Source: Patescibacteria group bacterium
GTDB lineage: Bacteria > Patescibacteriota > UBA1384 > JACPKC01
Length of the DNA: 64,000 nt
Assembly: GCA_050944875.1 (NCBI GenBank)
Contig: JBMNRW010000001.1
Span: 12,526 to 76,525 of the forward strand
Direction: 5' to 3'
Shown: piece after piece, positions 38,677 to 54,789 of the stretch
Position numbering within the stretch: position 1 is the stretch's first letter
How the letters are laid out: every line of letters begins with the position of its first letter
The notes under the pieces: generated by a model
Seen by the model: the letters and a program-made list of their open reading frames with translations, nothing else
Told to the model about the DNA's origin: nothing
The model's database searches: none
Program-made: the position numbers and the translations under genes

Positions 38677-39151
38677 GTTCTGCCTCGATGCGTGTAATCG
38701 CCCGCTCGATGATCGGTCGCAAGGTCCTGTACGAGATTAATCCCCGGAGCTCACGTGGCAGAACCCAATGTACTCGCTGGATGCGTTCGTCGACCTGTGC
38801 GGTCCCGGTCACCGTTGCTGGTGTGCGGAAGAGGAAGTACGACACCGTTTTGTGGACATTCTGCCCAGGGTGCTCCCAGCGGTCGACAAACCAAAACTGC
38901 GTGTTCCCTAGTTCATTAACGAACGTGAGTTCATTGATGGAGACTTCCTCGTGGATTTCCCGGCGCGCCGCTGCTTCGGCCGTCTCCCCCGCTTCGATCC
39001 GGCCTTTTGGGAATGCCCAGCGCCCATGGGAATCTTTGATCGCAAGTACGCGAGCGGCGCCATCGGCATCGAATCGGTAGACGATTCCGCCGGCAGAGTG
39101 TTCGTCGCGTTGATTCTTCATACGAGCGCTACTTATCTGCTGCACGCTCAA
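38660..39151 (-). CDS. NUDIX hydrolase.
   Basis: Nudix box GRIEAGETAEAAARREIHEEVSI. Confidence 0.85.
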   Translation of the reverse strand: MSVQQISSARMKNQRDEHSAGGIVYRFDADGAARVLAIKDSHGRWAFPKGRIEAGETAEAAARREIHEEVSINELTFVNELGNTQFWFVDRWEHPGQNVHKTVSYFLFRTPATVTGTAQVDERIQRVHWVLPRELRGLISYRTLRPIIERAITRIEAEHATTR

Positions 39152-40247
39152 TGAGCGTAACGGTTTCGCGAGCGGCGCGCTCCCAGCTGAACTGCTTGGC
39201 GCGCTCCTTGCCTCTTGTAATCAACCGTTCGGCAAGTCCTTTGTCAGTTACGACTTTTGCGACTCCTTCAGCAATTGCTTCGGCGCGGGTCGCATTCACG
39301 AGTACGCCGGCATCGCTGACGATCTCCGGAATACATGAGGATCGGCTCGCGATAACCGGTACGTCCGACGCCATAGCTTCTAGGAGCGGCATGCCGAACC
39401 CTTCGAACCCAGACGGGAAGACGAAGGCGCTCGCATGGCGGAGCCAGTCCCCGTGTGCTTCGTCGGTTACGTAGCCGACAAGGTGGACGCGCTCGCGAAT
39501 TTCGGGCGGGAGCTCGGCAAGTGCACGAGAAACTGCCGCGTAGCCGTGAGCGCCGGGTTTGCCCGCAAGGACCAGGTGGTGTGGTACGTGGAAGCGCTCG
39601 ACGAGGATTCGGAACGCCTGGATGAGCTTGGGCGTGTTCTTTTTCGCCTCGAGTCTTCCGATGGTGTACAGGTAGGGGCTAACTGCCCGCTGTTCGGCAG
39701 ACGGTTGTTCGCTGATGCCTCGCGGGTGAAAGCGATCGCGGTCGACGCCGTGGTAGATAGTGTGCACCCTTGTTGTCAGTGTGCGGGTGTACCGAAGGAT
39801 GTCTTTCCGTGTCGCTTCGGAGATGGCGATGATCGAGGTGGCGCTACGCCCTACCTGCCAGAGCGCAAACTCTTGGTAGAGCCGCTCGATCGCGCCGTAG
39901 TAGCTCGGGTGGTGCTTGAAGCCGAGGTCGTGCACCGTGACGATAGTTCGCTTTGGGTGAACGAATGGTATCGCGTGCGACGGCACGAAGAAGACGTCTG
40001 GTTGCTGCCGAGTGGCGAACTCAACCGACAGGCGCAGCTGTGTCCAGAGTCGGGGGAATGGCATGATTCGCCACGCCACCTGGGCATTTCCCGTGTCTAG
40101 CGGTGTCGTCGGCATTGCTGGTGCGTAGATCGTGTACGTATGGTGTGGCGCCACGCGAAACATGTGGTACAAAATTTGCCACGTGTAGTGCTCGGTTCCG
40201 GTGTACGTGGACTTCGCGAGTCGTGACCCGTCAATGCCGATGTGCAT
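39129..40247 (-). CDS. GT4-family glycosyltransferase.
   Basis: EGFGMPLLEAMASDVPVIASR is the GT-B retaining glycosyltransferase motif. The start is at MHIGIDG, with an aggagacc RBS. Confidence 0.8.
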   Translation of the reverse strand: MHIGIDGSRLAKSTYTGTEHYTWQILYHMFRVAPHHTYTIYAPAMPTTPLDTGNAQVAWRIMPFPRLWTQLRLSVEFATRQQPDVFFVPSHAIPFVHPKRTIVTVHDLGFKHHPSYYGAIERLYQEFALWQVGRSATSIIAISEATRKDILRYTRTLTTRVHTIYHGVDRDRFHPRGISEQPSAEQRAVSPYLYTIGRLEAKKNTPKLIQAFRILVERFHVPHHLVLAGKPGAHGYAAVSRALAELPPEIRERVHLVGYVTDEAHGDWLRHASAFVFPSGFEGFGMPLLEAMASDVPVIASRSSCIPEIVSDAGVLVNATRAEAIAEGVAKVVTDKGLAERLITRGKERAKQFSWERAARETVTLIERAADK

Positions 40248-40255
40248 GCGGTCTC

Positions 40256-41272
40256 CTACGTCTTTGCCCAGAGGACGGAGCGTTTGTACGCGTCGAGGTG
40301 TTCCGCGGCAATGCCGACACCCTTGGCGGTGCAAAGCATTGGTTCTTCCGCCAGTTGGCACGGGACGCCGGTAATCTTCGTGAAGAGGTTGTCGAGGTCA
40401 CGCAAGAGCGCCCCACCGCCCGTAAGAACGACGCCTTTATCCATGACGTCCGAGGCTAGTTCTGGCGGGGTGTGCTGGAGAACCTCTTTGACCGCTGCCA
40501 TGATCTCGCCAATCGGCTCCTTGAGTGCGGCGACGACGTCACTCGTCTGGACGATGACGCTCTCGGGTAGGCCGGAGACTCCGTTTGATCCGGAGACTTC
40601 CATGGTGAGTTCTTTCTTCGGCTTGAGCGCCGCGCCGATTTTCATCTTCACCTCTTCAGCGGTCCGACGACCGATGACGAGGTTGTACTTCTTGCGGATG
40701 TGGTTCGCGATCGCTTCGTCCATCCGATTGCCAGCGACGCGGACCGACGAGGTCGCAACCATGTCACCGAGCGAGATGACGGCAACTTCGCTTGTGCCAC
40801 CGCCGATGTCGATCACCATGTGGCCGCTCGGCGACGCGATTGGAATACCGGCGCCAAGGGCGGCTGCTACGGGTTGCTTAATGATGTAGGCCGCTTTCGC
40901 GCCTGCGGCGATGCATGCGTCAATTACCGCTCGCTGCTCGGTGCTCGTCGCGCCAGCCGGTACGGAGATGAGGATCTCGGGCCGGACGAGGCGGACACGG
41001 CCGCCGAGCTTGTTGACGAAGTACCGGAGCATGGCCTGGGTGACGCGGTAGTTCGCGATCACGCCGTCTTTCAGTGGGTGTGCGGCGAGAATGCTCTCTG
41101 GCGTTCGGCCAAGCATCTCGCGCGCTTCTTGTCCGATTGCCATGACCTGGTTTGTTCGTGCCTCGATCGCAACAACCGCCGGCTCGTTGATGACGATACC
41201 CTGGCCGGGTACATGGACGAGGACGTTCGTAGTGCCGAGGTCGATGGCAAGTCGGCGGAGGAAGAGCGACAC
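40256..41272 (-). CDS. mreB: Rod-shape-determining protein MreB.
   Basis: AIDLGTTNVLVHV...VIDIGGGTSEVAV are actin-fold motifs. A GTG start with a gaggagg RBS overlaps the end of murA. Confidence 0.9.
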   Translation of the reverse strand: MSLFLRRLAIDLGTTNVLVHVPGQGIVINEPAVVAIEARTNQVMAIGQEAREMLGRTPESILAAHPLKDGVIANYRVTQAMLRYFVNKLGGRVRLVRPEILISVPAGATSTEQRAVIDACIAAGAKAAYIIKQPVAAALGAGIPIASPSGHMVIDIGGGTSEVAVISLGDMVATSSVRVAGNRMDEAIANHIRKKYNLVIGRRTAEEVKMKIGAALKPKKELTMEVSGSNGVSGLPESVIVQTSDVVAALKEPIGEIMAAVKEVLQHTPPELASDVMDKGVVLTGGGALLRDLDNLFTKITGVPCQLAEEPMLCTAKGVGIAAEHLDAYKRSVLWAKT

Positions 41273-41273
41273 G

Positions 41274-42572
41274 CTACGCCTCCTCGCGTGTCATCGTCGC
41301 TCCAATGCCGCGGAGTTTCTCTTCGAGGTATTCGTATCCGCGGTCAAGGTGATGGATGCCCTGCAGGGTAGACTCGCCTTCGGCGACGAGCGCAGCAATC
41401 ACGTGCGCCATGCCAGCTCGAATGTCTGGTACGTCGAGCGTGGTGGCGGTGAGCGGCGCTGGCCCCTCGATTACGGCGAGGTGCCAAGCCCCCTGTCCGG
41501 CGTACCGGCAGGCTTGGTCGCCGCAATCGTCTTGGACGGTGATCTGCGCGCCCATGCGGACAAGGTCATCGGTGTACCCGAAGCGGTCCTCGTAGATCGT
41601 TTCGTGGATAGTCGAACGTCCTTCGGCCTGCGTGAGAACAACAGCGCTTGGCTGCTGCCAGTCAGTAACAAAGCCAGGGAAAACCTGTGTCGTAAGGGCA
41701 GTTGCGTGGAGCGGTCCTGTGCGCCAGACGCGGATCCCTTCGTCGTCGACGCGGAAATCACCGCCCACCGAACGGATGAAGGCGAGGTAGCTCGTGAGGT
41801 GCTCTTGGCGGGCACCCCGCAGGTAAACGTCGCCGCCTGTTGCCAGCGCGAGAGCAGCGTACGACGCGGCTTCGAGCCGGTCCGGAATGAGGCGGTGGTG
41901 TGCGCCGTGCAGTTCATCGACGCCGGTGATATGGATGGTGCCCGGTTCCAAACCGATGATCGCGCCCATATTCTGGAGGAGGCGGATGAGCTCGGCGATC
42001 TCCGGCTCGTTCGCGGCATTGCGAACGATCGTGTTCCCCTCGGCCAGGACTGCTGCCAGGAGAATGGTTTCGGTCGCGCCGACGCTTGGGAATGGGAGCG
42101 TGATGTCGGCGCCACGTAGCCGTGTTGCTCGGGCGTGGTAGCCTTGCTCATCCTCCGTAACGGTTGCGCCAAATGTCCGGAGCGCGTCGATGTGGAAGTC
42201 GACGGGTCGGGCGCCAATTTTGTCGCCGCCGACGCGCGGAACGTGTGCTTCGCCGGTGCGGTGGACGAGCGGCGCGAGCGCGAGGATCGGGAGACGGTTC
42301 CGGCGCGAGAGCTCGGTGATCGTGTTCGTTTGGATCGTGGCGGCGTTCACCGTGACCACGTGTGACTGCCGCTGAACCATCGCGCCGACAGCGCTCGCGA
42401 GCTCGGAGGCGATTGCAGCTTCTCCGTTATCAGGGACGTTCTCCAGTACGCACTCCTCGCCTGTTAGGAGCGTGGCGGGAATGAGTGCATCAATAGTGTT
42501 CTTGCCACCGGCGATTTGTACGTCGCCGTTCACGGGTGATCCGCCCCGGATACGGTAGTGTGGATTATGCAT
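41274..42572 (-). CDS. murA: UDP-N-acetylglucosamine 1-carboxyvinyltransferase.
   Basis: Full-length EPSP-synthase-fold MurA, IRGGSPVNGDVQIAGGKNTIDAL...ARPVDFHIDAL.... The start is set at MHNPHY; the upstream Met at 42653 is possible. Confidence 0.85.
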   Translation of the reverse strand: MHNPHYRIRGGSPVNGDVQIAGGKNTIDALIPATLLTGEECVLENVPDNGEAAIASELASAVGAMVQRQSHVVTVNAATIQTNTITELSRRNRLPILALAPLVHRTGEAHVPRVGGDKIGARPVDFHIDALRTFGATVTEDEQGYHARATRLRGADITLPFPSVGATETILLAAVLAEGNTIVRNAANEPEIAELIRLLQNMGAIIGLEPGTIHITGVDELHGAHHRLIPDRLEAASYAALALATGGDVYLRGARQEHLTSYLAFIRSVGGDFRVDDEGIRVWRTGPLHATALTTQVFPGFVTDWQQPSAVVLTQAEGRSTIHETIYEDRFGYTDDLVRMGAQITVQDDCGDQACRYAGQGAWHLAVIEGPAPLTATTLDVPDIRAGMAHVIAALVAEGESTLQGIHHLDRGYEYLEEKLRGIGATMTREEA

Positions 42573-42653
42573 TAGATCGAGCGTACCGTGCTTCCCTACT
42601 GGCCGCAAGCGATGCTTGAGGAAGTCGCCCGAAGGCAGTACCGTAGAGGACAC

Positions 42654-43367
42654 ATGGAGTACATACCCGCGTTGCGACGAACGAGCTGGGAGGTGGCGGC
42701 GTCGCTCCTCCTCGCGCTGCTAACACTCATCGGCGCGGTAATTCTCTTATTCGGTGCGAACGGGTACGTGGTGGACTTTAAGCGCCTGACTATTGAGCAG
42801 GCCGGACTCATTGTCGTTCGTCCGTCAGTTCGCTCAGCAATGGTCTCGCTGCCGAGCGAAGCGAAGACGAAGCAGCTCGGTCAAGAGTACGTTGCCCAGC
42901 TACTGCCTGGGCGCTACGACGTTACCGTGAGCGCGCCAGGTCGGACGACCTGGTCTCGAATAGTAGAGGTGCAACCGGGTACCGCGGCAGTCTACGGCAA
43001 TGTGACGCTCTTCTACGCTGAGCCCGAGCTCGCAGTAGAGCGGACGGCTGACCGACGTGACCTCGATGTGCCACTGGTTGACGAGTCGATTCTCGTCCGC
43101 GATGGCGAACTCTTGGTTCGGACGCCAGACGGTCTAGTACTCGTCTCGCGGTTCTCTAAACCTATCCGGGCGGCACGGTTCCTCGATGCTGCACACATTG
43201 TCTACCTCATTGGTTCGGACGTGCACATCATCGACCTCGATGGTCGGAGTGACGTGGCGTTTGCCGGACTGTGTCCGACCGGTCTCTGTCGATTCCGCAT
43301 CGAAGACAATGCCAAAACACTGACACTCGTCCAGGCGCTCACTGCCCGGTCCTACCGCATCCAGTAG
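42654..43367 (+). CDS. Membrane-anchored hypothetical protein.
   Basis: TM segment, then a beta-rich domain. The start is uncertain; the ORF is open from 42588. Confidence 0.5.
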   Translation: MEYIPALRRTSWEVAASLLLALLTLIGAVILLFGANGYVVDFKRLTIEQAGLIVVRPSVRSAMVSLPSEAKTKQLGQEYVAQLLPGRYDVTVSAPGRTTWSRIVEVQPGTAAVYGNVTLFYAEPELAVERTADRRDLDVPLVDESILVRDGELLVRTPDGLVLVSRFSKPIRAARFLDAAHIVYLIGSDVHIIDLDGRSDVAFAGLCPTGLCRFRIEDNAKTLTLVQALTARSYRIQ

Positions 43368-43368
43368 G

Positions 43369-44064
43369 TCAGTGTTGCTCGACGGGGCTTGCGAAGACGA
43401 AGAGCCGATTAAGCGTCGTGCCGACTGGCGCACACGTCATAAGCGCAAGTTCATTCGTTATCAGTGTCGGGTCGCGTAGGACTTCCACATCCTTGGGGCC
43501 TACGACGGCTTTCCAGTGTACGGCGTACACGTACGCTGCTTCACCGTGCTTCACGTAGATTCGATCGCCTGGTTCCAGCTTATGGAGCACGGAGAACACC
43601 TTGGTCCAGGGGTTACGCATCCACCAGTACCCAGCCGAGTGTCCAACGATCACTGTCCGTCCGACTTCCCCGGGTAGAACCGTTTCCTCTGCGTGCACGA
43701 CACCTCGTTGCAAGCCGTTTAGTGAATCGGCAATCGGCAAGTTCCAGCCAACCGGAGCGGTCACGCCGATACTCGGAATCTCAATCGTGTCGCGTGGGAG
43801 TTCGGCAAGGACTGCACTGTCCTGCGCGGTTCGGCCGGTAGCTCGGGAGGGTTGCGTAGTACCTCCTGCTTGCTGGAAGTGGTTCAGAGCAAACCGCGCT
43901 CGTTCGAGCTGCGCAGGGAGCGAGAGGAAAACGTAGAACACGATGAATGCGCCAAGCAAAAAGACCACGGCCTGCGCAACGCCAACAATGAGAGAGCTCC
44001 GCGTGCGCCGCTCGATCCAGTGGGCGATGCGATCTGCTTCGTGGGGATGGATATAGGAGTTCAT
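43369..44064 (-). CDS. Sortase (transpeptidase), copy 1.
   Basis: N-terminal TM anchor, HS active-site region (VIVGHSAGYWW), TLxTC-like LMTCAP and downstream Arg. Confidence 0.8.
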   Translation of the reverse strand: MNSYIHPHEADRIAHWIERRTRSSLIVGVAQAVVFLLGAFIVFYVFLSLPAQLERARFALNHFQQAGGTTQPSRATGRTAQDSAVLAELPRDTIEIPSIGVTAPVGWNLPIADSLNGLQRGVVHAEETVLPGEVGRTVIVGHSAGYWWMRNPWTKVFSVLHKLEPGDRIYVKHGEAAYVYAVHWKAVVGPKDVEVLRDPTLITNELALMTCAPVGTTLNRLFVFASPVEQH

Positions 44065-44266
44065 AGTGATGCCAAGGGCTCAACTATACGGTGTAGCCTT
44101 GTGACCCGCAATGCGTCTGCCGCTGCGAGGGGTCAGCTCCGTCCACTGTGGATAACTCGGTTGACATGCCTTCTTACCGTTGCCAGCATCGAAGTAACTA
44201 CAAATCGTGTGGGCCGAAACAACTCACACGGACGAACGTAGAAGCACTAGTTTTGAGGAGGTCCCC

Positions 44267-45202
44267 ATGCGGGCAGCCTATATTGGAAGACTCACAGGCA
44301 GCGGTACTGTCCGTCGGGTCGCTGCTCTTGCGCTGGTAAGTGCACTAGCAGTAGCGCCGTACATGGCTTCAGCCGCGACGGACGCGGAGTTTACGAATCA
44401 CCTGACCGGCGCTGATTCGGTAAACGGCAACACGCTTGAAGGTACGACGACGTTCAACTTCACCGTGACGAACGTTGGTACGGTGACGAATGACTTCGAT
44501 CTCGACCTCAACACGGGCGGGAATACGATTAGCGGTAATACGACCGTCGGGGATGTCTTGACCGGTGACATCGACGCCGAGCTCGAAGTTGAGAATGTGG
44601 TGAATACCGCGCCGGTCGTGGTGCCAATGGGGATGGGCGGTGGCGACGTTACGGTTCGGAGCGAGAACCACCTGACCGGTGCTGGTTCGACGAACACGAA
44701 CACCACAACGACTTCGTCGACTGCAAACATGACGACGACGAATGTCGGAACGGTGACAAACGCGATGACGCTGGCGCTGAATACCGGTAATAACACGATT
44801 GAGAACAATACGACGGTCGGCGACATCTCGACCGGCGACATCCGGGTCCGCGGGCGCGTTGAGAACCGCGTCAACGCCGAGCCGGAAGCAAACGGCCAAG
44901 GTGGCGGTACGATTCCGCCGACGGTGATCCCGCAGCCGACGTACACGAACACCCCGCCAGCGGTCGTCGCCAATCTTCCGGCAGCCACAGTATCCGGGGG
45001 TGGGACGATCGCAAAGGTTGCGCAGACGGTGACGACGCCCAAAAACGAGTTCTTCCCTGCCGGCACAGCGCTCAATGCCGCTGAGATTCTTTCCCTCCTG
45101 GCACTCGCCTTCCTCGCGGTCTACGGGTTCGATCTGATCCAGTACGCCTACCGCCGGCGCGCGCTCGTCGCGCACCAGGTCGGTGCCCTGCGCTTCCTCT
45201 AA
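44267..45202 (+). CDS. Secreted tandem-repeat protein RP1 (two repeat units of about 90 aa) with a C-terminal hydrophobic segment and RRR tail.
   Basis: gaggagg RBS and a signal peptide. The repeat is N-HLTGA[DG]S-N-N...VTN...LNTG-NTI-NTTVGD[VI]-TGDI. The C-terminus FPAGTALNAAEILSLLALAFLAVYGF...RRR has sorting-signal architecture. Confidence 0.7.
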   Translation: MRAAYIGRLTGSGTVRRVAALALVSALAVAPYMASAATDAEFTNHLTGADSVNGNTLEGTTTFNFTVTNVGTVTNDFDLDLNTGGNTISGNTTVGDVLTGDIDAELEVENVVNTAPVVVPMGMGGGDVTVRSENHLTGAGSTNTNTTTTSSTANMTTTNVGTVTNAMTLALNTGNNTIENNTTVGDISTGDIRVRGRVENRVNAEPEANGQGGGTIPPTVIPQPTYTNTPPAVVANLPAATVSGGGTIAKVAQTVTTPKNEFFPAGTALNAAEILSLLALAFLAVYGFDLIQYAYRRRALVAHQVGALRFL

Positions 45203-45310
45203 CACATTGCGGTCGATACCTGCACGGCAGCGCGTGGCTGGTGCATGGTACGAATTAACTCCACGCGCAGAAGTACAAGTTAGTTTCTCTCAGAGGAAAA
45301 GGAGTTTTCC

Positions 45311-46183
45311 ATGAAACTCGACCTCATTACTGCCCGCAACCGGATGCGTGTCGTTGCAGCGGTCGCGGCACTCGCCCTCCTTGGCGGCGCTGGCTCGGCC
45401 TGGGCTGATGTCAACGTCGACGGTTTGAACGAGCGCACGGGCGCTGACTCGGATAACTTTAACACCTACACTGTTGATGACCTTGTTGATGCAGATATCA
45501 TCAACTCGTCATCGGCACTCAACGACGTCCTCCTGAATGTTGACTCGGGTAACAATGATGTTCTCGAGAACACGACGGTCGGTGATGTTGAAGGTGGAGA
45601 TGTAAACGTCGGGGGTTCGTTCTACACCGAACTCAATGCCGGCATGGTTGAGCTCGATGGTATGGCGATGGGCGATGTTGATGCGAGCTTTGAGAACAAC
45701 ACAACTGGCGCCAACTCCGTGAACCGCAACACGCTCGATGTTGAGCGTGATACGCTCGTCACGGTGACGAATGCTGGTTCAGCATCGAACCTCTACGATC
45801 TCACTGTCGATACCGGTGACAACGACACCAACCGCAACACGACGGTCGGTGACGTGTCGACGGGCGATGTCGATATGAACATTGAAGCCGAGACCATGAT
45901 CAATGAAGGTGCTTCCTCAATTGATCTTGGTGATCTTGGTGCGAGCAGCAGTGTTGACGCGAGCTTTGAGAACGCCATCACTGGTGCTGATTCGGACAAC
46001 CGCAACACGGTGATTGTCGATGACGTGAAGGATATTGACGTCACGAACAGTGCGACTGTCACGAATGATCTCGATCTCATTGTCGATACCGGTGACAACG
46101 ACACCAACCGCAACACGACGGTCGGTGACGTGTCGACGGGCGACGTCTCGATCGACTTCAGCTTCACGAACATCCTTAACTAA
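45311..46183 (+). CDS. Secreted tandem-repeat protein RP2 (three repeat units, no C-terminal anchor).
   Basis: aaaggag RBS and a signal peptide. It has three units ending NTTVGDVSTGDV. It also contains a near-exact 62-nt intragenic DNA direct repeat (45806-45867 and 46082-46143). Confidence 0.7.
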   Translation: MKLDLITARNRMRVVAAVAALALLGGAGSAWADVNVDGLNERTGADSDNFNTYTVDDLVDADIINSSSALNDVLLNVDSGNNDVLENTTVGDVEGGDVNVGGSFYTELNAGMVELDGMAMGDVDASFENNTTGANSVNRNTLDVERDTLVTVTNAGSASNLYDLTVDTGDNDTNRNTTVGDVSTGDVDMNIEAETMINEGASSIDLGDLGASSSVDASFENAITGADSDNRNTVIVDDVKDIDVTNSATVTNDLDLIVDTGDNDTNRNTTVGDVSTGDVSIDFSFTNILN

Positions 46184-46199
46184 GGATTTCGTACCTGAC

Positions 46200-46228
46200 G
46201 CGGATTGCAGGACAACCTGCAATCCCGC
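46200..46228 (+). other. Stable hairpin between RP2 and RP3 (possible attenuator or RNA-processing site).
   Basis: gcggattgcagg-acaa-cctgcaatcccgc is a 12-bp stem with no U-tract, and it is immediately followed by the RP3 RBS. Confidence 0.4.
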
Positions 46229-46255
46229 CAGAGACGAAGCAACGAAGGGAGTTCA

Positions 46256-48232
46256 ATGACAGACCAGTACGCACGTTCGCTCCGTCGCACTACGGCACGC
46301 GTCCTCTTTGTGCCGTTTTTCGTGTGGAGCCTGTTCGCGCCGCTCATTACCGTAGCGGCAGAGGGAGAAGTACCTCAAACCGGACCGACCGTCGAGACCG
46401 GGCCGACGCAGCCAACGGGCACCACTGTTGAAACGGGGCCGACGCAGCCAACTGGGCCAACGGGTCCGACTGGTACGTCAGTGGTTGAGCCGGAGCCATG
46501 TACTGACCCGTCATGCTTCTACGGCATGGGGCAGGGCGAGGGTCAGGGCGTTGACCAAGGTGTTGGCCAGGGCGTCCCAGCGGCCGCAGCCGCTACGCCA
46601 ACTGGGACCCTTGCAAACGACACGACCGGTGCTGGATCGACGAATACCAACAGCGCGACTGAGAACAACTCAACCGATATCACGAACCGCAATAACGCGA
46701 CGATTACGAACGACGTCGATATGAGTCTGAGTACCGGGAGCAATACGCTTAGCCAGAACAGCGAAGTCGGCAGCCTGACGACAGGCGACATCCGGGGCTC
46801 GCTCTCGATCGTGAACGCAGCGAACTCCCAGTTCGCACCGGGCAGTAGCGTCGGCCTTGGTACTGCAACCTCTGGTGCCGACGGCGTCCTCCTTATGGCA
46901 GATGGATCTCGGGCGTACCTGCCCTCAAATAGCCAGACCGGCGCCGACTCGACCAACACTAACGCGATTTCCGGCACGAACGCGGTAAGAATCGTCACAG
47001 AGAGCACCGCGCTCGTCGACAACGATATCGACATTGCGGCCTCAACGGGCGGGAACACTATTACGGAGAACACGCTCTTCGGCGATATCACGACCGGTTC
47101 GATCGACCTCGCCGTGAACCTCATCAATCTTCTAAACCTTTTAATGCCCGACACGCTCTTCATGGTCGACCTGTGGAACCTCTACGGAGACGTCCTGGGT
47201 GATATCTTCGCGCCGCTCACGAATAGTCAGACGGGCGCCGGCTCGACGAACACGAACGCGGTCAGTGGGGTGAACACGGCGGATGTGACGGTCACGAGCA
47301 TCGCGGACACGACGAACACGTTCAATATTACAACTGACACGGGCAGCAATGTCCTTGACCAGAACACGGCTGTCAGTGATGTATCGACGGGCGACGTCCG
47401 CATCGATGGCAGCGTCACGAACATCTCGAACGCTGCGACACCCACGTTCTACATCGTGAACGTGCTCGGCAAGTGGAATGGCGGCGCGCTCGCCTTATCG
47501 GCTGGCAGCTACATCATCAATGAGCTTGGCAACTGGCTGACCGGTGCCGACTCGACGAATACGAACACCGTCGACCAGACGAATACGCTCGATATGGACA
47601 TTACGAACACCGCGACCGTGAACAATGGGCTCAATATCTCGGCGAGCACGGGCGGTAATACGATTGCTCGGAACACGGCCGTGGGCAACGTGACCACTGG
47701 AGATATCAACATCATGGCGAACGTCGTGAACTTCCTGAACTCATTCGGTGGCGACCTGTCGAAGTTCTCCCTGGGTGTGATCAATATCTTCGGCGACTGG
47801 GGGAAGAAGCCGACGCCTGCACCGGTGGTACCGCAGGCCGTGGGCCTTGGCCAGGGCGGCGCGCCAGTCGGTGAAGAACAGGATGCGGAACCGATGCAGC
47901 TTGCGACTGTTACTACTGCAACGCAGGGTAAGGTAGCTGAGGTCGCGCCTCAGGCACCAGCTGTGAATCAGGTAGCTCCAGCCATGCAGTCGGTTGTCCG
48001 GCGTCCGGTCACGCAGCTGACGCAGGCTCCGGCACCGTCGGCTGCGACAAGCGCGGGTAGCTCGGTACTGGTCGCGGGAACGAGCTCAGTACCGACTGCA
48101 GCTGACCTCGGTCTCATCGACGGCGAACAGGAACGTGGTTCCTCGGTATCGTACCTCTGGATTGCACTCATCTCCCTCGGGGTGATCTGGGGGGTCTTAG
48201 AACTCGCAGCACTGCGTAAGCAGCGCGCCTAA
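46256..48232 (+). CDS. Secreted tandem-repeat protein RP3 (four repeat units, Gly/Gln-rich spacers, C-terminal TM plus basic tail).
   Basis: gaagggag RBS and a signal peptide. It has four units of ...TGA[DG]STNTN...TG-NT...GD[IV]-TGD[IV].... The C-terminus SVSYLWIALISLGVIWGVLELAALRKQRA is a TM segment plus a basic tail. Confidence 0.7.
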   Translation: MTDQYARSLRRTTARVLFVPFFVWSLFAPLITVAAEGEVPQTGPTVETGPTQPTGTTVETGPTQPTGPTGPTGTSVVEPEPCTDPSCFYGMGQGEGQGVDQGVGQGVPAAAAATPTGTLANDTTGAGSTNTNSATENNSTDITNRNNATITNDVDMSLSTGSNTLSQNSEVGSLTTGDIRGSLSIVNAANSQFAPGSSVGLGTATSGADGVLLMADGSRAYLPSNSQTGADSTNTNAISGTNAVRIVTESTALVDNDIDIAASTGGNTITENTLFGDITTGSIDLAVNLINLLNLLMPDTLFMVDLWNLYGDVLGDIFAPLTNSQTGAGSTNTNAVSGVNTADVTVTSIADTTNTFNITTDTGSNVLDQNTAVSDVSTGDVRIDGSVTNISNAATPTFYIVNVLGKWNGGALALSAGSYIINELGNWLTGADSTNTNTVDQTNTLDMDITNTATVNNGLNISASTGGNTIARNTAVGNVTTGDINIMANVVNFLNSFGGDLSKFSLGVINIFGDWGKKPTPAPVVPQAVGLGQGGAPVGEEQDAEPMQLATVTTATQGKVAEVAPQAPAVNQVAPAMQSVVRRPVTQLTQAPAPSAATSAGSSVLVAGTSSVPTAADLGLIDGEQERGSSVSYLWIALISLGVIWGVLELAALRKQRA

Positions 48233-48252
48233 CCCTATTCGCCTCTCCTCGC

Positions 48253-48876
48253 ATGGACGAGCGCACCCACGCTAGAGCAAGTTGGAAAAAGCTCGGCTGG
48301 GTTGCGCTCGTCTTCGTTGTGCTGGCCGGCTGGTGGTACGCAGAATTTCTGACGAGCATCGTCCGCCCGTCGCTCATTCGGACGGAGCTCATCAGTGCTC
48401 CTCGGGCCGCTGAGCTTCAGGCGCCTGCGTTCGCGTACCCCGCGCTCGGGATTGTCGCACCGGTAGTTGAGGCAGCGGAGACGAGTCCGCTCGCCGCTCG
48501 CGATTGGCAGGTGATCGCCGCTGCGCTGCGGGCCGGCGTTAGTCTGGCATACGAGGGGCCATCCCTTGAGTCGGCCCGACTCGCCTTCGTCACCGGCCAT
48601 TCCAGCGACACGATCCGCCACCCGTACGCGTCGGTGTTCGCTGGCCTGGGGCAGTCACGCATGGGCGATGAGTTTGTCGTGCAGCTTGTCGACGGCCAAC
48701 GCCGGTACCGTGTGAGCGATCGCAGCGTGTACTCCCCGGCTGACCTGGATGCCTTTCGTGCCCTGGAACCGGCCCCGGGTTCTCCTCAGCGTGTTGTTCT
48801 CGTCACGTGCTGGCCGCCATTGACAACGAAGAGCAGACTTGTTGTGACTGGAGAATACGTAGGAGGTGAACAATGA
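48253..48876 (+). CDS. Sortase (transpeptidase), copy 2.
   Basis: N-terminal TM, FVTGHSSD (active-site His) and LVTCWP (TLxTC catalytic Cys). Confidence 0.8.
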   Translation: MDERTHARASWKKLGWVALVFVVLAGWWYAEFLTSIVRPSLIRTELISAPRAAELQAPAFAYPALGIVAPVVEAAETSPLAARDWQVIAAALRAGVSLAYEGPSLESARLAFVTGHSSDTIRHPYASVFAGLGQSRMGDEFVVQLVDGQRRYRVSDRSVYSPADLDAFRALEPAPGSPQRVVLVTCWPPLTTKSRLVVTGEYVGGEQ

Positions 48877-50063
48877 TGAAGGTACTTACAGTGCTCGTAA
48901 TGGTGGTGGTAACCGTCTTCGCACTGCCCACTGGTGTTAGCGCCGAGGAGATGCAAGACCGCGTCATCGTGCGCTTCCGCGCTGGCGTGTCGTCGGATGA
49001 TCAGCAGCGCACTCTCGACAGGGTAGGTGCGCGCGAGCGCCGGTCGTACCGCGTCCTACGCGCCCAAAGCGCTACGGTGTCGTCGAGGGGGCGTGCTGCA
49101 CTATTGTCCGAAGACGCCGTCGAGGGCGTTGATCCGGATCTCGAAGTTTCGGCGTTCTTGACGGTGGGTCAACTAAAGGCAGCTGGCCACCGCGAACGTG
49201 CCCTCGCTTCGTCAACGCAAGAGCTTACGTGGAACTTAACGCGTATTGGTGCGCCGGTCGCGTGGAACGTGGGCCGAGGTGCGGGCACGCGAGTGGCGGT
49301 GCTCGACACAGGCGCGCAGCTTACGCACCCGGATTTAGCCGGGAGGATCGCAGCGTCTCGGAACTTCGTCCGGCCAGGCCGGTCAGCGGATGACGACAAC
49401 GGCCACGGCACACACGTCGCTGGGGTGATCGCTGCTGCGGATAACAGCGTGGGCGTCGTCGGCGTCGCGCCGGACACGAGCCTCCTCATTGCGAAGGTGC
49501 TCGACTCGCGCGGCCGCGGGTACGTCTCGGACATCATTGCCGGCCTTGATTGGGCGATCCAGAACAACGCGCGCGTCGTAAACATGAGCCTCGGCTTGCC
49601 GACCGACGTCCCAAGCTTGCGCCTCGCTGTAGAGCGTACCATGGGAGCTGGCATTAGCGTCGTGGCAGCGGCCGGGAATGACGGCGGCCAAGTGAGTTAC
49701 CCGGCTGCGTATCCAGTGGTAATCGCAGTAGGTGCAACAGACGCTACGGATGCGGTGCCGAGTTGGTCGGCACAGGGGCAGGCGCTCGACCTCGTGGCGC
49801 CTGGCGTCAACGTGAAGTCCACGTACCGTCGAAGCCGCTACGTCACGATGACTGGGACGTCCATGGCGACGCCCCACGTGGCAGCGGCTGCTGCGTTGCT
49901 CTCGCAGCAGCCAACGCAGTGCGATATCGACGGCAACGGCGTCTGCGCGCCAGCTGAGATCGAGGCCAGACTCCGCGCTACCGCAACCGATCTCCTGGCT
50001 AGCGGGTACGACGTGCGCTCCGGCGCCGGTCGGCTCAATGTAGCACAGGCGCTCGGCCGCTAA
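48873..50063 (+). CDS. Subtilisin-like serine protease (S8) with an I9 propeptide.
   Basis: Its start overlaps the sortase stop (ATGA). Signal peptide, then the Asp (VLDTGAQ), His (HGTHVAG) and Ser (GTSMATPH) triad. Confidence 0.9.
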   Translation: MMKVLTVLVMVVVTVFALPTGVSAEEMQDRVIVRFRAGVSSDDQQRTLDRVGARERRSYRVLRAQSATVSSRGRAALLSEDAVEGVDPDLEVSAFLTVGQLKAAGHRERALASSTQELTWNLTRIGAPVAWNVGRGAGTRVAVLDTGAQLTHPDLAGRIAASRNFVRPGRSADDDNGHGTHVAGVIAAADNSVGVVGVAPDTSLLIAKVLDSRGRGYVSDIIAGLDWAIQNNARVVNMSLGLPTDVPSLRLAVERTMGAGISVVAAAGNDGGQVSYPAAYPVVIAVGATDATDAVPSWSAQGQALDLVAPGVNVKSTYRRSRYVTMTGTSMATPHVAAAAALLSQQPTQCDIDGNGVCAPAEIEARLRATATDLLASGYDVRSGAGRLNVAQALGR

Positions 50064-50109
50064 CTCTCGACAGGGTATCTCAGTCCCCGTATAGTGAAGC
50101 CGCTATCCG

Positions 50110-50195
50110 GCCGGAGTGGCGGAATGGCAGACGCGGCGGACTCAAAATCCGCTGTCCGCAAGGACATGTGGGTTCGACTCCCTCCTCCGGCACCA
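50110..50195 (+). tRNA. tRNA-Leu (anticodon CAA).
   Basis: Cloverleaf with acceptor gccggag/ctccggc, anticodon loop cuCAAaa, a long variable arm and an encoded CCA. It is followed by hairpin agcaccc...gggtgct. Confidence 0.85.
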
Positions 50196-50266
50196 CGTAA
50201 CCAGGCAGAGAAGCACCCTGCGGATTCACGGGGTGCTTTCCAGTTCAAGTCAGCACGAGGCGCAGT

Positions 50267-51238
50267 ATGACACGAGGGTTTTGGGACAACTTGCCGCAGC
50301 CCTTCTTCGTCCTTGCCCCGATGGCGAACGTAACCGACACGGTGTTCCGTCAGATCATCCGCAAATATAGCCGGCCGGACGTCATGTATACCGAGTTTGT
50401 GTCGTGTGACGGCCTCTGTTCGGCAGGTCGCGAGCGACTGCTTCGTGACCTCCAGTTCGTCCCGGCGGAGCGGCCGCTCGTCGCCCAGGTGTTCGGCGCG
50501 ACACCCGAGCACTTCTACGAGACCGCGAAGCTCGTCGTCTCGCTCGGGTTCGACGGCATTGATATCAATATGGGCTGCCCTGACCGGGCGGTCGTCCGGC
50601 AGGGCGCCGGCGCGGCACTCATCCGCACTCCCCTCTTGGCGCAGGCGATTGTCCGGGCAACGCGGGACGGTGTACGCGACGCCGGGTCGGCGATTCCTGT
50701 TTCGGTGAAGACCCGGCTTGGCTTCCAGGCTGACGAGGCAGAGCGTTGGCTCCCCCACCTCCTCGAGCTCGACCTGCCGGCGTTGACCGTGCACGCCCGG
50801 ACGAAGAAAGAGCTCTCGGAAGTGCCGGCGCACTGGGACCGGCTATCGGCGGTCGTTGCGCTCGCGGCCGGGACTAGTACACACATCATCGGGAACGGCG
50901 ACGTCACCTCGATCGAGGACGCGCGGGCAAAGAGCGCCGCCTCGGGTGTCGACGGTGTCATGCTCGGCCGGGCGATCTTCGGAAACCCGTGGCTCTTCCG
51001 TGACAATACCGAACGACCGCCAGTGCCCGAGGTACTCAGGGTGGTCGTCGAGCACACGGAGCTCTACGAAACGACGTGGGGCGCGGCGAAGCCCTTCGAC
51101 CTCATGAAGAAGCACTACAAAGCCTACGTCACCGGATTTCCGGGCGCGCACGAGCTGAGGATTGAGCTCATGGCGTGCCGCGATGCTGAGAGCGTCCGGC
51201 GCACTGTTGAGTCCTTCCTCGCCGATACTCACCGGTAG
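50267..51238 (+). CDS. dus: tRNA-dihydrouridine synthase.
   Basis: FFVLAPMANVTDTVFRQI...GIDINMGCP...VSVKTRLG are Dus TIM-barrel motifs. Confidence 0.85.
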   Translation: MTRGFWDNLPQPFFVLAPMANVTDTVFRQIIRKYSRPDVMYTEFVSCDGLCSAGRERLLRDLQFVPAERPLVAQVFGATPEHFYETAKLVVSLGFDGIDINMGCPDRAVVRQGAGAALIRTPLLAQAIVRATRDGVRDAGSAIPVSVKTRLGFQADEAERWLPHLLELDLPALTVHARTKKELSEVPAHWDRLSAVVALAAGTSTHIIGNGDVTSIEDARAKSAASGVDGVMLGRAIFGNPWLFRDNTERPPVPEVLRVVVEHTELYETTWGAAKPFDLMKKHYKAYVTGFPGAHELRIELMACRDAESVRRTVESFLADTHR

Positions 51239-51330
51239 GAGTTGCGCGGTCCGCTTGGAACGCGCCGCGCATTGCCGTACTGTACGAGTACAGAACACTT
51301 CCCAGAACTCTCCGAGGGGAGGTGAGTGGA

Positions 51331-51504
51331 ATGGCAAGGCAGTACGGGCCAAAAGCCCAAGAGTACGTGCACGACGTGATGCACGAGTTCAAGCACGGGA
51401 AGCTTCGGAGTCGCGACGGCCGCACGGTGACAAAGCGCAGGCAGGCGGTAGCGATTGGGCTCCAGAAGGCGCGCAAGGTCGGCGCGAAGGTGTCGAAGCA
51501 GTAG
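51331..51504 (+). CDS. Small conserved basic protein (57 aa).
   Basis: A ggggaggtgag RBS precedes MARQYGPKAQEYVHDVMHEFKHGKLRSRDGRTVTKRRQAVAIGLQKARKVGAKV. Confidence 0.55.
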   Translation: MARQYGPKAQEYVHDVMHEFKHGKLRSRDGRTVTKRRQAVAIGLQKARKVGAKVSKQ

Positions 51505-51602
51505 GCCGCGTAGACGACGAATGGAGTGTGGCGTGGAGTGCTGCGCTCCTTGTTGTTTTGCCGGGAGTCGTCTACACTGCACCGGTTCAACGAAAGGCAG
51601 GT

Positions 51603-54789
<3,187 letters not shown>

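What the first reader, a model, noticed from the sequence alone, without database searches (positions are those of the whole stretch)
44990..48232. Non-canonical C-terminal sorting signals on RP1 and RP3, and none on RP2.
- RP1 ends with FPAGT...(19 hydrophobic residues)...YRRRAL.
- RP3 ends with VPTAAD...LGLIDGE...(20 hydrophobic residues)...LRKQRA.
- Both have the architecture of a sortase cell-wall sorting signal (motif, TM segment, basic tail) but lack LPXTG.
- RP2, the middle gene, has no anchor at all. This pattern would be expected if RP2 is a major polymerising subunit and RP1/RP3 are anchoring or tip subunits.
- The two sortases may recognise an unusual pentapeptide such as FPAGT.
Basis: inference. 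Interest (0 to 1): 0.55.

Follow-up and report, generated by a model that had tools for sequence, protein, structure and literature searches.

The report
Variant sortase signal FFPAG in CPR bacteria
In an uncultured ultra-small (CPR/Patescibacteria) bacterium, three related surface repeat proteins sit between two sortase genes; the first carries a strictly conserved FFPAG motif where relatives have the classic LPXTG cell-wall anchoring signal, which points to an undescribed sortase specificity.

Summary
RP3 (46256-48232) ends with a TM segment plus LRKQRA. RP2 (45311-46183) has no anchor. Two catalytically intact sortases flank the genes. The window is a Patescibacteria MAG.

The order RP1-RP2-RP3-sortase recurs in 12 of 12 complete loci that hold an FF-type RP1. 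Eleven loci with RP2 and RP3 but no FF-type RP1 show no sortase nearby.

In 37 of 37 non-redundant RP1-type proteins a pentapeptide [FY]F[PA][AS]G, with invariant Gly, lies 5-8 residues before the TM. Two of them carry canonical LPITG at that spot. Larger paralogues carry RFPVAG or LPxAG.

So RP1 very probably bears a variant sortase signal.

RP3's VPTAAD sits where orthologues have LPQVAG, but it is degenerate and poorly conserved. What is invariant in RP3 is W-x3-E inside the TM, so RP3 is probably simply membrane-anchored.

RP2 never has an anchor and no lysine is conserved. Sortase-catalysed polymerisation of RP2 is therefore unsupported. A chaplin-like arrangement, with anchored paralogues plus a secreted one, fits better.

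No paper or curated model describes the motif or the protein family.

The parts
42588..43367 (+). Conserved accessory gene (259 aa): N-terminal TM plus a weak CarboxypepD_reg-like domain
   Evidence: Pfam PF13620 at 25.7 bits, below its cut-off. Orthologues sit at the same position in L001, L003-L006, L012 and L084.
43369..44064 (-). Sortase 1 (231 aa), divergently transcribed from RP1; present only in the Berkelbacteria-like clade
   Evidence: PF04203 at 84.3 bits. His (GHS), Cys (MTCAP) and Arg (NRL) are conserved and there is an N-terminal TM. Best NCBIfam class is C, at 58.7 bits against a cut-off of 160. Best PDB matches are class C sortases.
44267..45202 (+). [quoted passage not shown]
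   Evidence: ORF and translation. Homologues and alignment A1. No Pfam or NCBIfam hit.
45050..45064 (+). FFPAG motif of RP1 (residues 262-266 counted from the Met): the candidate sortase recognition pentapeptide
   Evidence: F, F, P and G are invariant and A nearly so in A1. [FYLI][FPIV][PAIQ][ASTV]G is present in 37 of 37 RP1-type proteins, two of which have LPITG.
45068..45199 (+). RP1 hydrophobic segment (45068-45139) and Arg-rich tail with an extra C-terminal stretch (45140-45199)
   Evidence: Hydropathy scan and coordinates.
45311..46183 (+). RP2: secreted, very acidic three-repeat protein (43 Asp, 2 Lys) with no C-terminal anchor
   Evidence: Orthologues all end in ...FSFTN[IV]LN or similar without a TM.
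46256..48232 (+). RP3: 658-aa secreted protein with a collagen-like G-P-T tract (46379-46474), four repeats, a low-complexity linker and a C-terminal TM
   Evidence: 100% identical to an NCBI 'Patescibacteria group bacterium' hypothetical protein.
48089..48106 (+). VPTAAD of RP3: degenerate counterpart of the LPQVAG/PQVAG motif seen in orthologues
   Evidence: Positional comparison of 51 RP3-type C-termini. [VI]AG is seen in 11 of 51, against 2.2 expected from shuffles.
48152..48229 (+). RP3 TM segment with invariant Trp and Glu (W-x3-E), followed by the LRKQRA tail
   Evidence: W645 and E649 are invariant in A3. The pattern recurs in 51 non-redundant RP3-type proteins.
48253..48876 (+). Sortase 2 (207 aa), 20 nt downstream of RP3; the sortase that always accompanies FF-type RP1
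   Evidence: PF04203 at 49.6 bits. GHSSD, VTCWPP and R are invariant in A6. Present in 12 of 12 complete FF-type loci. Best class is C, at 40.4 bits against a cut-off of 160.
48873..50063 (+). Secreted subtilisin-like S8 peptidase, overlapping the sortase 2 stop by 4 nt; a clade-specific accessory
   Evidence: PF00082 at 199 bits. Present in the window, L001, L003-L006, L008 and L084; absent in L007, L021-L023 and L082.

Best explanation
The locus encodes a CPR-specific surface assembly made of three paralogous, beta-rich Asn/Thr/Gly repeat proteins.

- All three are exported by Sec signal peptides (inferred from the sequences).
- RP1 carries a variant cell-wall sorting signal: FFPAG, then a TM segment, then an Arg cluster. 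The dedicated membrane-anchored sortase 2 cleaves it, most likely between Ala and Gly, and transfers RP1 to a cell-envelope acceptor, presumably a peptidoglycan precursor (inferred). In this clade sortase 1 may also take part.
- RP3 stays in the membrane through its own C-terminal helix, which has a conserved W-x3-E. Its ancestral LPxAG-like motif has decayed; here it reads VPTAAD.
- RP2 is released without an anchor. It associates non-covalently with its anchored paralogues through the shared repeat domain.

In logic this resembles Streptomyces chaplins, where long forms are sortase-anchored and short forms are secreted and co-assemble.

Shown: the gene order, the motif conservation, the sortase catalytic residues and the co-occurrence of FF-type RP1 with sortase.
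Inferred: cleavage, the scissile bond, the acceptor and the co-assembly.
For: 1. Both sortases have the Pfam Sortase domain, with conserved His, Cys and Arg and N-terminal TM anchors.
2. The FFPAG block is invariant among RP1 orthologues while the flanking linker varies. Across representatives clustered at 50% identity, 37 of 37 RP1-type proteins have x-x-x-[A/S/T/V]-G with invariant Gly, 5-8 residues before the TM. Two have canonical LPITG at the same site.
3. Within the wider family the series LPxTG, LPxAG, FPxAG and FFPAG all occur. FPx[AST]G occurs 30 times just upstream of the TM and never elsewhere in 85,621 residues.
4. Co-occurrence: 12 of 12 complete loci with an FF-type RP1 have a sortase-2-type gene right after RP3 (window, L001, L003-L007, L021-L023, L082, L084). 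Eleven loci with RP2 and RP3 but no FF-type RP1 have no sortase within 8-10 kb.
5. The S8 peptidase and sortase 1 are absent from several FFPAG loci. Sortase 2 is therefore the only constant enzyme.
6. RP2-type proteins never have a TM.
7. RP3-type proteins keep an invariant W and E in the TM, but no conserved pentapeptide.
8. The chaplin precedent for anchored long forms comes from PMC5148588.
Against: - There is no biochemical evidence of cleavage.
- With G as P1', FFPAG lacks both the Pro at P3 and the Thr at P1. Every characterised sortase signal has a PXT core (PMC5148588).
- RP1's tail continues for about 12 mostly hydrophobic residues beyond the Arg cluster, which is unusual for a sorting signal.
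- FPVAG- and LPITG-bearing paralogues (L014, L018-L020) have no sortase within 10 kb, so adjacency is not universal.
- The co-occurrence counts are not corrected for phylogeny.
- The fold of the repeat domain could not be predicted (pLDDT 38 and 41), so co-assembly is pure inference.
- Peptidoglycan as the acceptor is assumed only from MurA and MreB next door.
Confidence: 0.6

Rival explanations
1. Classic covalent sortase pilus. RP2 is the major pilin polymerised by the sortases, and RP1 and RP3 are tip and base subunits.
For: Three paralogous genes sit between two sortases. Both sortases score best, though weakly, against class C pilus-sortase models and structures.
Against: - Covalent polymerisation needs a sorting signal on every incorporated subunit and a conserved acceptor lysine.
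- RP2 and all roughly 60 of its homologues lack any sorting signal.
- No Lys is invariant in A1, A3 or A4, and RP2 has only 2 Lys.
- The class C cut-off is missed by a wide margin: 58.7 and 40.4 bits against 160.
- Many lineages have only one sortase.
Confidence: 0.1
2. Both C-termini are ordinary, uncleaved membrane anchors. FFPAG is a structural juxtamembrane element, and the sortases act on other substrates encoded elsewhere.
For: - RP3's motif is not conserved, but its TM is.
- RP1's tail is longer than a typical sorting-signal tail.
- Sortase-1-like enzymes occur alone elsewhere, and one sits next to an LPRTG protein.
- FPVAG loci lack a nearby sortase.
Against: - A five-residue block is invariant inside an otherwise variable linker.
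- It is replaced by canonical LPITG in homologues.
- FF-type RP1 co-occurs with sortase 2 in 12 of 12 loci, against 0 of 11 without it.
- Close sortase-2 relatives were found only in RP cassettes or on contigs cut off upstream of the sortase gene.
Confidence: 0.2
3. The sorting signal is real, but sortase 2 joins RP1 to another RP protein rather than to peptidoglycan. For example, it could link RP1 to the N-terminal amine of mature RP2 or RP3. The result would be a membrane-tethered heteropolymer with RP3 as the base.
For: - RP3 is a conserved, membrane-anchored partner encoded immediately upstream of sortase 2 in all loci.
- RP2 and RP3 form the universal core pair.
- RP2's mature N-terminus (AWA|D[VI][DN]) is conserved.
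Against: No conserved nucleophilic Lys is present. There is no precedent in this family. The idea rests on inference alone.
Confidence: 0.1

Closest known systems
LPXTG/LAXTG cell-wall sorting signals processed by class A-F sortases
   Same: The tripartite layout is the same: a short motif, a hydrophobic segment of about 20 residues, then a basic cluster, on a Sec-exported protein. A membrane-anchored sortase with the His/Cys/Arg triad is encoded next door. Homologues of RP1 carry true LPITG at the same position.
   Different: The motif is FFPAG, or [FY]F[PA][AS]G. Aligned on the Gly it has no Pro at P3 and no Thr at P1. Characterised sortases all use a PXT core (PMC5148588). No NCBIfam sorting-signal model matches it. 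The tail is longer than usual. Neither sortase reaches any class cut-off.
Streptomyces chaplins with class E sortases (SrtE1/SrtE2; ChpA-C)
   Same: A set of paralogous secreted proteins shares one domain. Some members are anchored through a non-canonical sortase signal (PMC5148588). That other members are secreted without an anchor and co-assemble on the surface is recalled from general knowledge of chaplins, not from a paper read here.
   Different: There is no sequence relationship: no Pfam or NCBIfam hit to any known family. The repeat domain differs (about 70-aa Asn/Thr/Gly-rich units). There is an extra TM-anchored giant member (RP3). The organism is a CPR bacterium. Amyloid-like assembly was not shown.
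Sortase-assembled Gram-positive pili (class C sortases; SpaA, RrgB and GBS pilins)
   Same: Several structural genes are clustered with one or two dedicated sortases, whose weak best matches are to class C enzymes.
   Different: The middle subunit has no sorting signal and there is no conserved pilin-motif lysine. The class C threshold is missed. No Ig-like CnaB/CnaA domains were detected.
Pam pili of CPR bacteria (PamA/PamB, Ca. Mycosynbacter amalyticus)
   Same: A CPR-restricted extracellular filament system encoded by an operon of secreted, previously unannotated proteins, some with C-terminal TM anchors (bioRxiv 10.64898/2026.03.03.709456).
   Different: Pam pilins have Ig-like folds and are joined by donor-strand exchange with PapD-like chaperones. 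In the parts of the paper read here, no sortase is listed among the pam operon components. The RP proteins are repeat proteins with sortases and no chaperone-like genes. No sequence comparison with Pam proteins could be run here.

Membership tests
Sortase superfamily (PF04203) | Pfam Sortase domain above the gathering score | tested here: met
   84.3 bits (43369-44064, minus strand) and 49.6 bits (48253-48876, plus strand) against a cut-off of 26.6.
Sortase superfamily (PF04203) | Catalytic His, Cys (TLxTC-like) and Arg conserved | tested here: met
   GHS, [MV]TC and R are invariant in the orthologue alignments A6 and A7 and aligned with each other. They also align to class C structures.
Class C (pilus-specific) sortase | NCBIfam NF033745 score at or above the curated cut-off (160 bits) | tested here: not met
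   58.7 and 40.4 bits. All 11 sortase-2 orthologues match best to this model, but only weakly, with a best E-value of 6.8e-17.
Class C (pilus-specific) sortase | Substrates are pilins with both a sorting signal and a conserved acceptor Lys | tested here: not met
   RP2 has no sorting signal. No Lys is invariant in A1, A3 or A4.
Class A, B, D, E, F or GN sortases | NCBIfam class model at or above its cut-off | tested here: not met
   All class models lie far below their cut-offs (140-166 bits). The best non-C scores are 54.2 bits (class E) and 51.8 bits (SrtD) for sortase 1. No reference phylogeny was built.
LPXTG-type cell-wall sorting signal | LPXTG, or a known variant pentapeptide (LAXTG, NPXTN, LPXTA) | tested here: not met
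   RP1 has FFPAG and RP3 has VPTAAD. No NCBIfam sorting-domain model matches, even at E up to 10.
LPXTG-type cell-wall sorting signal | Motif followed within a few residues by a hydrophobic segment and a basic tail, on a protein with an N-terminal signal peptide | tested here: met
   For RP1, G266 is followed after about 8 residues by a 15-residue hydrophobic core and then YRRR. For RP3 the TM is followed by LRKQRA, but the motif lies 15 residues upstream of the TM. Signal peptides were judged by inspection only.
LPXTG-type cell-wall sorting signal | Cleavage by sortase and covalent linkage to peptidoglycan | not testable with these tools
   This needs an in-vitro cleavage assay, or mass spectrometry of the mature protein.
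Chaplin-like anchored-plus-secreted paralogue system | Paralogues sharing one assembly domain: some sortase-anchored, some secreted without an anchor | tested here: met
   RP1, RP2 and RP3 match each other at E-values of 1e-23 to 1e-43. RP1 and RP3 are anchored and RP2 is not.
Chaplin-like anchored-plus-secreted paralogue system | Homology to the chaplin domain, or demonstrated amyloid assembly | tested here: not met
   There is no Pfam or NCBIfam hit to any family and no PDB relative. Assembly was not tested.

The most novel reading that the evidence does not exclude
Sortase 2 founds a CPR-specific sortase class. Its recognition signal, [FY]F[PA][AS]G, has lost the PXT core common to all characterised sortase substrates. 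It tethers one member of a very large, undescribed family of extracellular repeat proteins (about 1,300 clusters at 50% identity). Together with an unanchored paralogue and a membrane-anchored paralogue, that member builds a new kind of surface fibre or coat on ultra-small bacteria.
Probability: 0.35. Interest if true: 0.7.

Novelty: new variant of a known kind. Interest (0 to 1): 0.55.

Why it matters
- Sortases are reported in more than half of CPR genomes (PMC6744442). None of the papers found and read here describes their substrates or recognition motifs.
- A dedicated sortase paired with a conserved FFPAG signal gives a concrete, testable enzyme-substrate pair in this uncultured radiation. 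If the specificity is real, it widens the known sortase code beyond the PXT core.
- Such an enzyme could also serve as an orthogonal tool for sortase-mediated protein ligation.
- The substrates belong to a large, unannotated, CPR-wide family of secreted repeat proteins. These are likely to shape the cell surface of episymbiotic bacteria, so they bear on how these cells attach to hosts.

Tried and rejected
- **Structure prediction.** AlphaFold2 on RP2 with a 37-sequence alignment, and on a single repeat with 98 repeats, gave pLDDT 38 and 41. No fold could be assigned and no fold search was run.
- **PDB profile search.** A search with the RP2 alignment found nothing at E up to 1.
- **Family scans.** Pfam and NCBIfam gave no family for RP1, RP2 or RP3. 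The C-terminal peptides alone matched no sorting-signal model.
- **Genome scan.** The 26-sequence alignment failed because it had no conserved stretch. A narrower alignment worked.
- **Metagenome scan with sortase 2.** It returned mostly distant sortases without RP neighbours, and close relatives on contigs cut off upstream of the sortase gene. It added little.
- **Literature.** Searches for FPVAG, FFPAG and LPXAG, and for sortase together with CPR or Patescibacteria, found no description of this motif or family. The Pam pilus preprint describes a different system.
- **Rejected: the S8 peptidase as the processing enzyme.** It is absent from five FFPAG loci.
- **Rejected: exosortase, archaeosortase or rhombosortase signals such as PEP-CTERM or PGF-CTERM.** No model matched, no such enzyme was seen in the cassette, and sortases are present instead.
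- **Not done.** A sortase phylogeny with reference sequences was not built, because no reference set was available offline.

Full report
**What is at the locus**

ORF listing and domain scans show a compact cassette:

- A 259-aa TM protein with a weak CarboxypepD_reg-like hit (42588-43367, plus strand).
- Sortase 1 (43369-44064, minus strand).
- RP1 (44267-45202, plus strand; ATG preceded by GAGGAGG).
- RP2 (45311-46183).
- RP3 (46256-48232).
- Sortase 2 (48253-48876).
- A secreted S8 subtilase (48873-50063), followed by tRNA-Leu.

RP1, RP2 and RP3 are paralogues built from 2, 3 and 4 copies of an Asn/Thr/Gly-rich unit of about 70 residues (..N..TGA.S.N.N...N.A...N.....TG.N....NT..G...TGD......N..N). 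They match each other at E-values of 1e-23 to 1e-43. They hit no Pfam, NCBIfam or PDB family. RP3 is 100% identical to a hypothetical protein of an NCBI 'Patescibacteria group bacterium' MAG. The nearest named relatives are Berkelbacteria MAGs, so the window comes from a CPR bacterium.

**Check of the observation**

- RP1 does not stop at YRRRAL. It continues with VAHQVGALRFL.
- RP2 ends in ...DVSIDFSFTNILN with no hydrophobic segment.
- In the whole 64-kb window, RP1 and RP3 are the only secreted-type ORFs with a C-terminal TM plus basic tail. There is no LPXTG-type candidate elsewhere in the window.

**RP1 carries a conserved motif**

- In the alignment of RP1 with its nine database homologues (35-99% identity), F-F-P-(A)-G is invariant or nearly so. 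The linker before it and the residues after it vary.
- An exhaustive profile search found 1,284 family representatives at E up to 1e-3.
- Among all short anchored (RP1-type) members from that search and from the fetched loci, 37 of 37 non-redundant sequences have a pentapeptide [F/Y/L/I]-[F/P/I/V]-[P/A/I/Q]-[A/S/T/V]-G.
- The Gly is invariant and lies 5-8 residues before the hydrophobic core.
- Thirty-five of the 37 are FF-type: FFPAG, FFPSG, FFAAG, YFAAG, FFQAG, FFPVG, YFPAG, YFPSG, FVPAG or IIPAG. Two (L014, L020) have canonical LPITG in the same place.
- The residue after the Gly is A, S, G, T, Q or D.

The conserved unit is therefore FFPAG.

The larger paralogues help with the register. 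Of 121 anchored members of 450 aa or more, 30 carry RFP[V/T/A][A/S]G, 7 carry LPx[T/A]G, and 5 carry LPxSG or LPxGG, all upstream of the TM. FPx[AST]G never occurs in the remaining 85,621 residues of those proteins. The series LPxTG, LPxAG, FPxAG, FFPAG keeps [T/A/S]-G fixed. I therefore favour cleavage between Ala and Gly, at roughly 70:30. This is inference.

**Link to the sortases**

- Both sortases keep the His (GHS), Cys (TC) and Arg residues and an N-terminal TM.
- Neither reaches any NCBIfam class cut-off. The best match is class C, at 58.7 and 40.4 bits against 160. All 11 sortase-2 orthologues behave the same way.
- The best solved relatives are class C enzymes of S. agalactiae and A. 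oris, at E-values of about 1e-7.
- Gene context was examined in 25 related loci that held RP genes. They were chosen through RP1, RP2, RP3 or the RP3 alignment.
- Every complete locus with an FF-type RP1 has the order RP1-RP2-RP3-sortase 2. This holds in 12 of 12: the window, L001, L003-L007, L021-L023, L082 and L084 (in L007 the first two genes are swapped).
- Sortase 1, the S8 peptidase and the 259-aa protein occur only in the Berkelbacteria-like clade.
- Eleven loci have an RP2-type plus an RP3-type gene but no FF-type RP1. None has a sortase within 8-10 kb. They are L009-L011, L013-L016, L018-L020 and L083.
- These counts are not corrected for phylogeny. They still identify RP1 as the likely substrate and sortase 2 as the constant enzyme.
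- Sortase-1-like enzymes occur alone in other metagenome contigs. In one case (L043/L045) such an enzyme sits next to an LPRTG protein. Sortase 1 may therefore be a more general enzyme.

**RP3**

- In the ten-sequence alignment, the only invariant C-terminal residues are W645 and E649 inside the TM. W-x(2-4)-E followed by basic residues recurs in 51 non-redundant RP3-type proteins.
- Upstream, many orthologues have LPQVAG, LPRVAG, PQ[VI]AG or xxVAG about 12-15 residues before the TM. [VI]AG is seen in 11 of 51, against 2.2 expected from shuffles, and none of 500 shuffles reached 11. Most of these cases come from one clade.
- The window's VPTAAD occupies that position with Asp in place of Gly. 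L003, P0012 and P0013 have nothing recognisable there.
- RP3 therefore appears to carry a decaying LPxAG-like signal. It is best read as a membrane-anchored subunit.

**RP2**

- All RP2-type homologues, about 60 in total with three or four repeats, lack a TM. Near orthologues end in a conserved ...FSFTN[IV]LN.
- An unanchored RP2-type gene immediately precedes the large anchored gene in every locus examined. This pair is the universal core of the system.
- RP2 is extremely acidic, with 43 Asp and 2 Lys.
- No lysine is invariant in any of the three alignments.
- Sortase-catalysed polymerisation requires a sorting signal on the donor subunit and a conserved acceptor lysine (established knowledge of class C pilus assembly).
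- The pattern fits non-covalent co-assembly of a secreted paralogue onto anchored paralogues. In Streptomyces chaplins, the long forms ChpA-C are anchored by class E sortases through a non-canonical LAXTG signal (PMC5148588).
- Structure prediction failed twice (pLDDT 38 and 41), so the fold and mode of assembly remain unknown.

**Comparison with what is known**

- Sortases are reported in more than half of CPR genomes (PMC6744442). I found no paper describing their substrates or motifs.
- The recently described CPR Pam pili are a different system, built by donor-strand exchange; no sortase is listed among the operon components in the parts I read.
- The 2016 SrtE1 paper states that all characterised sortases recognise a PXT core. 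Aligned on the Gly, FFPAG has neither the Pro at P3 nor the Thr at P1.
- NCBIfam (June 2026) has no model that matches these C-termini.

**Verdict**

The finding is real and partly well interpreted. RP1 very probably bears an undescribed variant sortase signal tied to a dedicated, unclassified sortase. RP3's supposed motif is a degenerate remnant. RP2 is a secreted partner, not a sortase-polymerised pilin. I rate this a new variant of a known kind: sortase-dependent surface display, on a large uncharacterised CPR protein family. Confidence in the overall model is about 0.6. Interest is 0.55.

Noticed in passing
window 44267-48232; P0001-P0295: The RP repeat family is very large: 1,284 representatives at E up to 1e-3 among clusters at 50% identity, and 211 at E up to 1e-30. 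Almost all named hits are CPR MAGs. It has no Pfam, NCBIfam or PDB relative, and AlphaFold2 cannot fold it even with a 98-repeat alignment.
   Followed up: partly
window 46379-46474 (RP3 residues 42-73): RP3 and its orthologues start with a collagen-like tract of G-P-T/G-P-Q triplets. One homologue has a Pfam Collagen hit and another is annotated 'collagen-like protein'. This suggests a trimeric stalk at the end far from the membrane.
   Followed up: no
window 48152-48229; 51 RP3-type proteins: The TM of RP3-type proteins has an invariant Trp and a membrane-embedded Glu (W-x3-E-x-x-A-x-R/K). This looks like a conserved C-terminal domain in its own right. It occurs in loci both with and without a nearby sortase.
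   Followed up: partly
window 48065-48079; RP3-type and larger paralogues: A short [V/I]-L motif (QVLGAS, QILTAA, VLVAG, LVLAAS, or ILRR just before FPVAG) lies about 10 residues upstream of the sorting-motif position across distant subfamilies. It may mark the end of the folded ectodomain.
   Followed up: no
P0052, P0057, P0072, P0073, P0077, P0080, P0082, P0092 (L020 10001-12205): One subfamily of 720-740-aa RP3-like proteins has a different conserved C-terminus, [RHY]F[SG][AT]DPG[LI]FD[DG]F[KR]L.YL followed by a TM and basic tail. In L020 it is followed by a small RP1-like protein with canonical LPITG.
   Followed up: no
L015 2467-5697, L016 9599-12892, P0112, P0124, P0127: Some large family members end in dockerin-like repeats (D.N.DGKV...D.SI....W; a Pfam dockerin hit in P0124) instead of a TM. 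This suggests an alternative, non-covalent mode of attachment.
   Followed up: no
L018 6328-16151, L019 7275-19146: FPVAG-type loci (Andersenbacteria-like) share a different conserved neighbourhood and no sortase. It holds a CAP-domain protein, a 190-210-aa Cys-containing secreted protein, a four-repeat unanchored RP, the roughly 1000-aa FPVAG protein, a roughly 300-aa TM protein, a roughly 160-aa tail-anchored protein and a TrwB/VirD4-like ATPase.
   Followed up: partly
L043 5698-8435, L045 3082-5819: A sortase-1-like enzyme (62 bits to sortase 1) lies directly downstream of a 539-aa protein ending in ...YELPRTGGT plus TM plus basic tail. This hints that the sortase-1 lineage handles canonical LPXTG.
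   Followed up: no
window 39129-54789 compared with L001 and L084: Synteny around the cassette is conserved between the window and two Berkelbacteria MAGs. On one side lie a GT4 glycosyltransferase, MreB and MurA; on the other lies enolase. The cassette therefore sits next to cell-wall and cell-shape genes.
   Followed up: partly
window 45140-45199 (RP1 tail): After the Arg cluster, RP1 orthologues keep a second hydrophobic or amphipathic stretch of about 12 residues (ALVAHQVGALRFL; ALIYRYAAILPVL). This is unusual for a sortase sorting signal and is unexplained.
   Followed up: no
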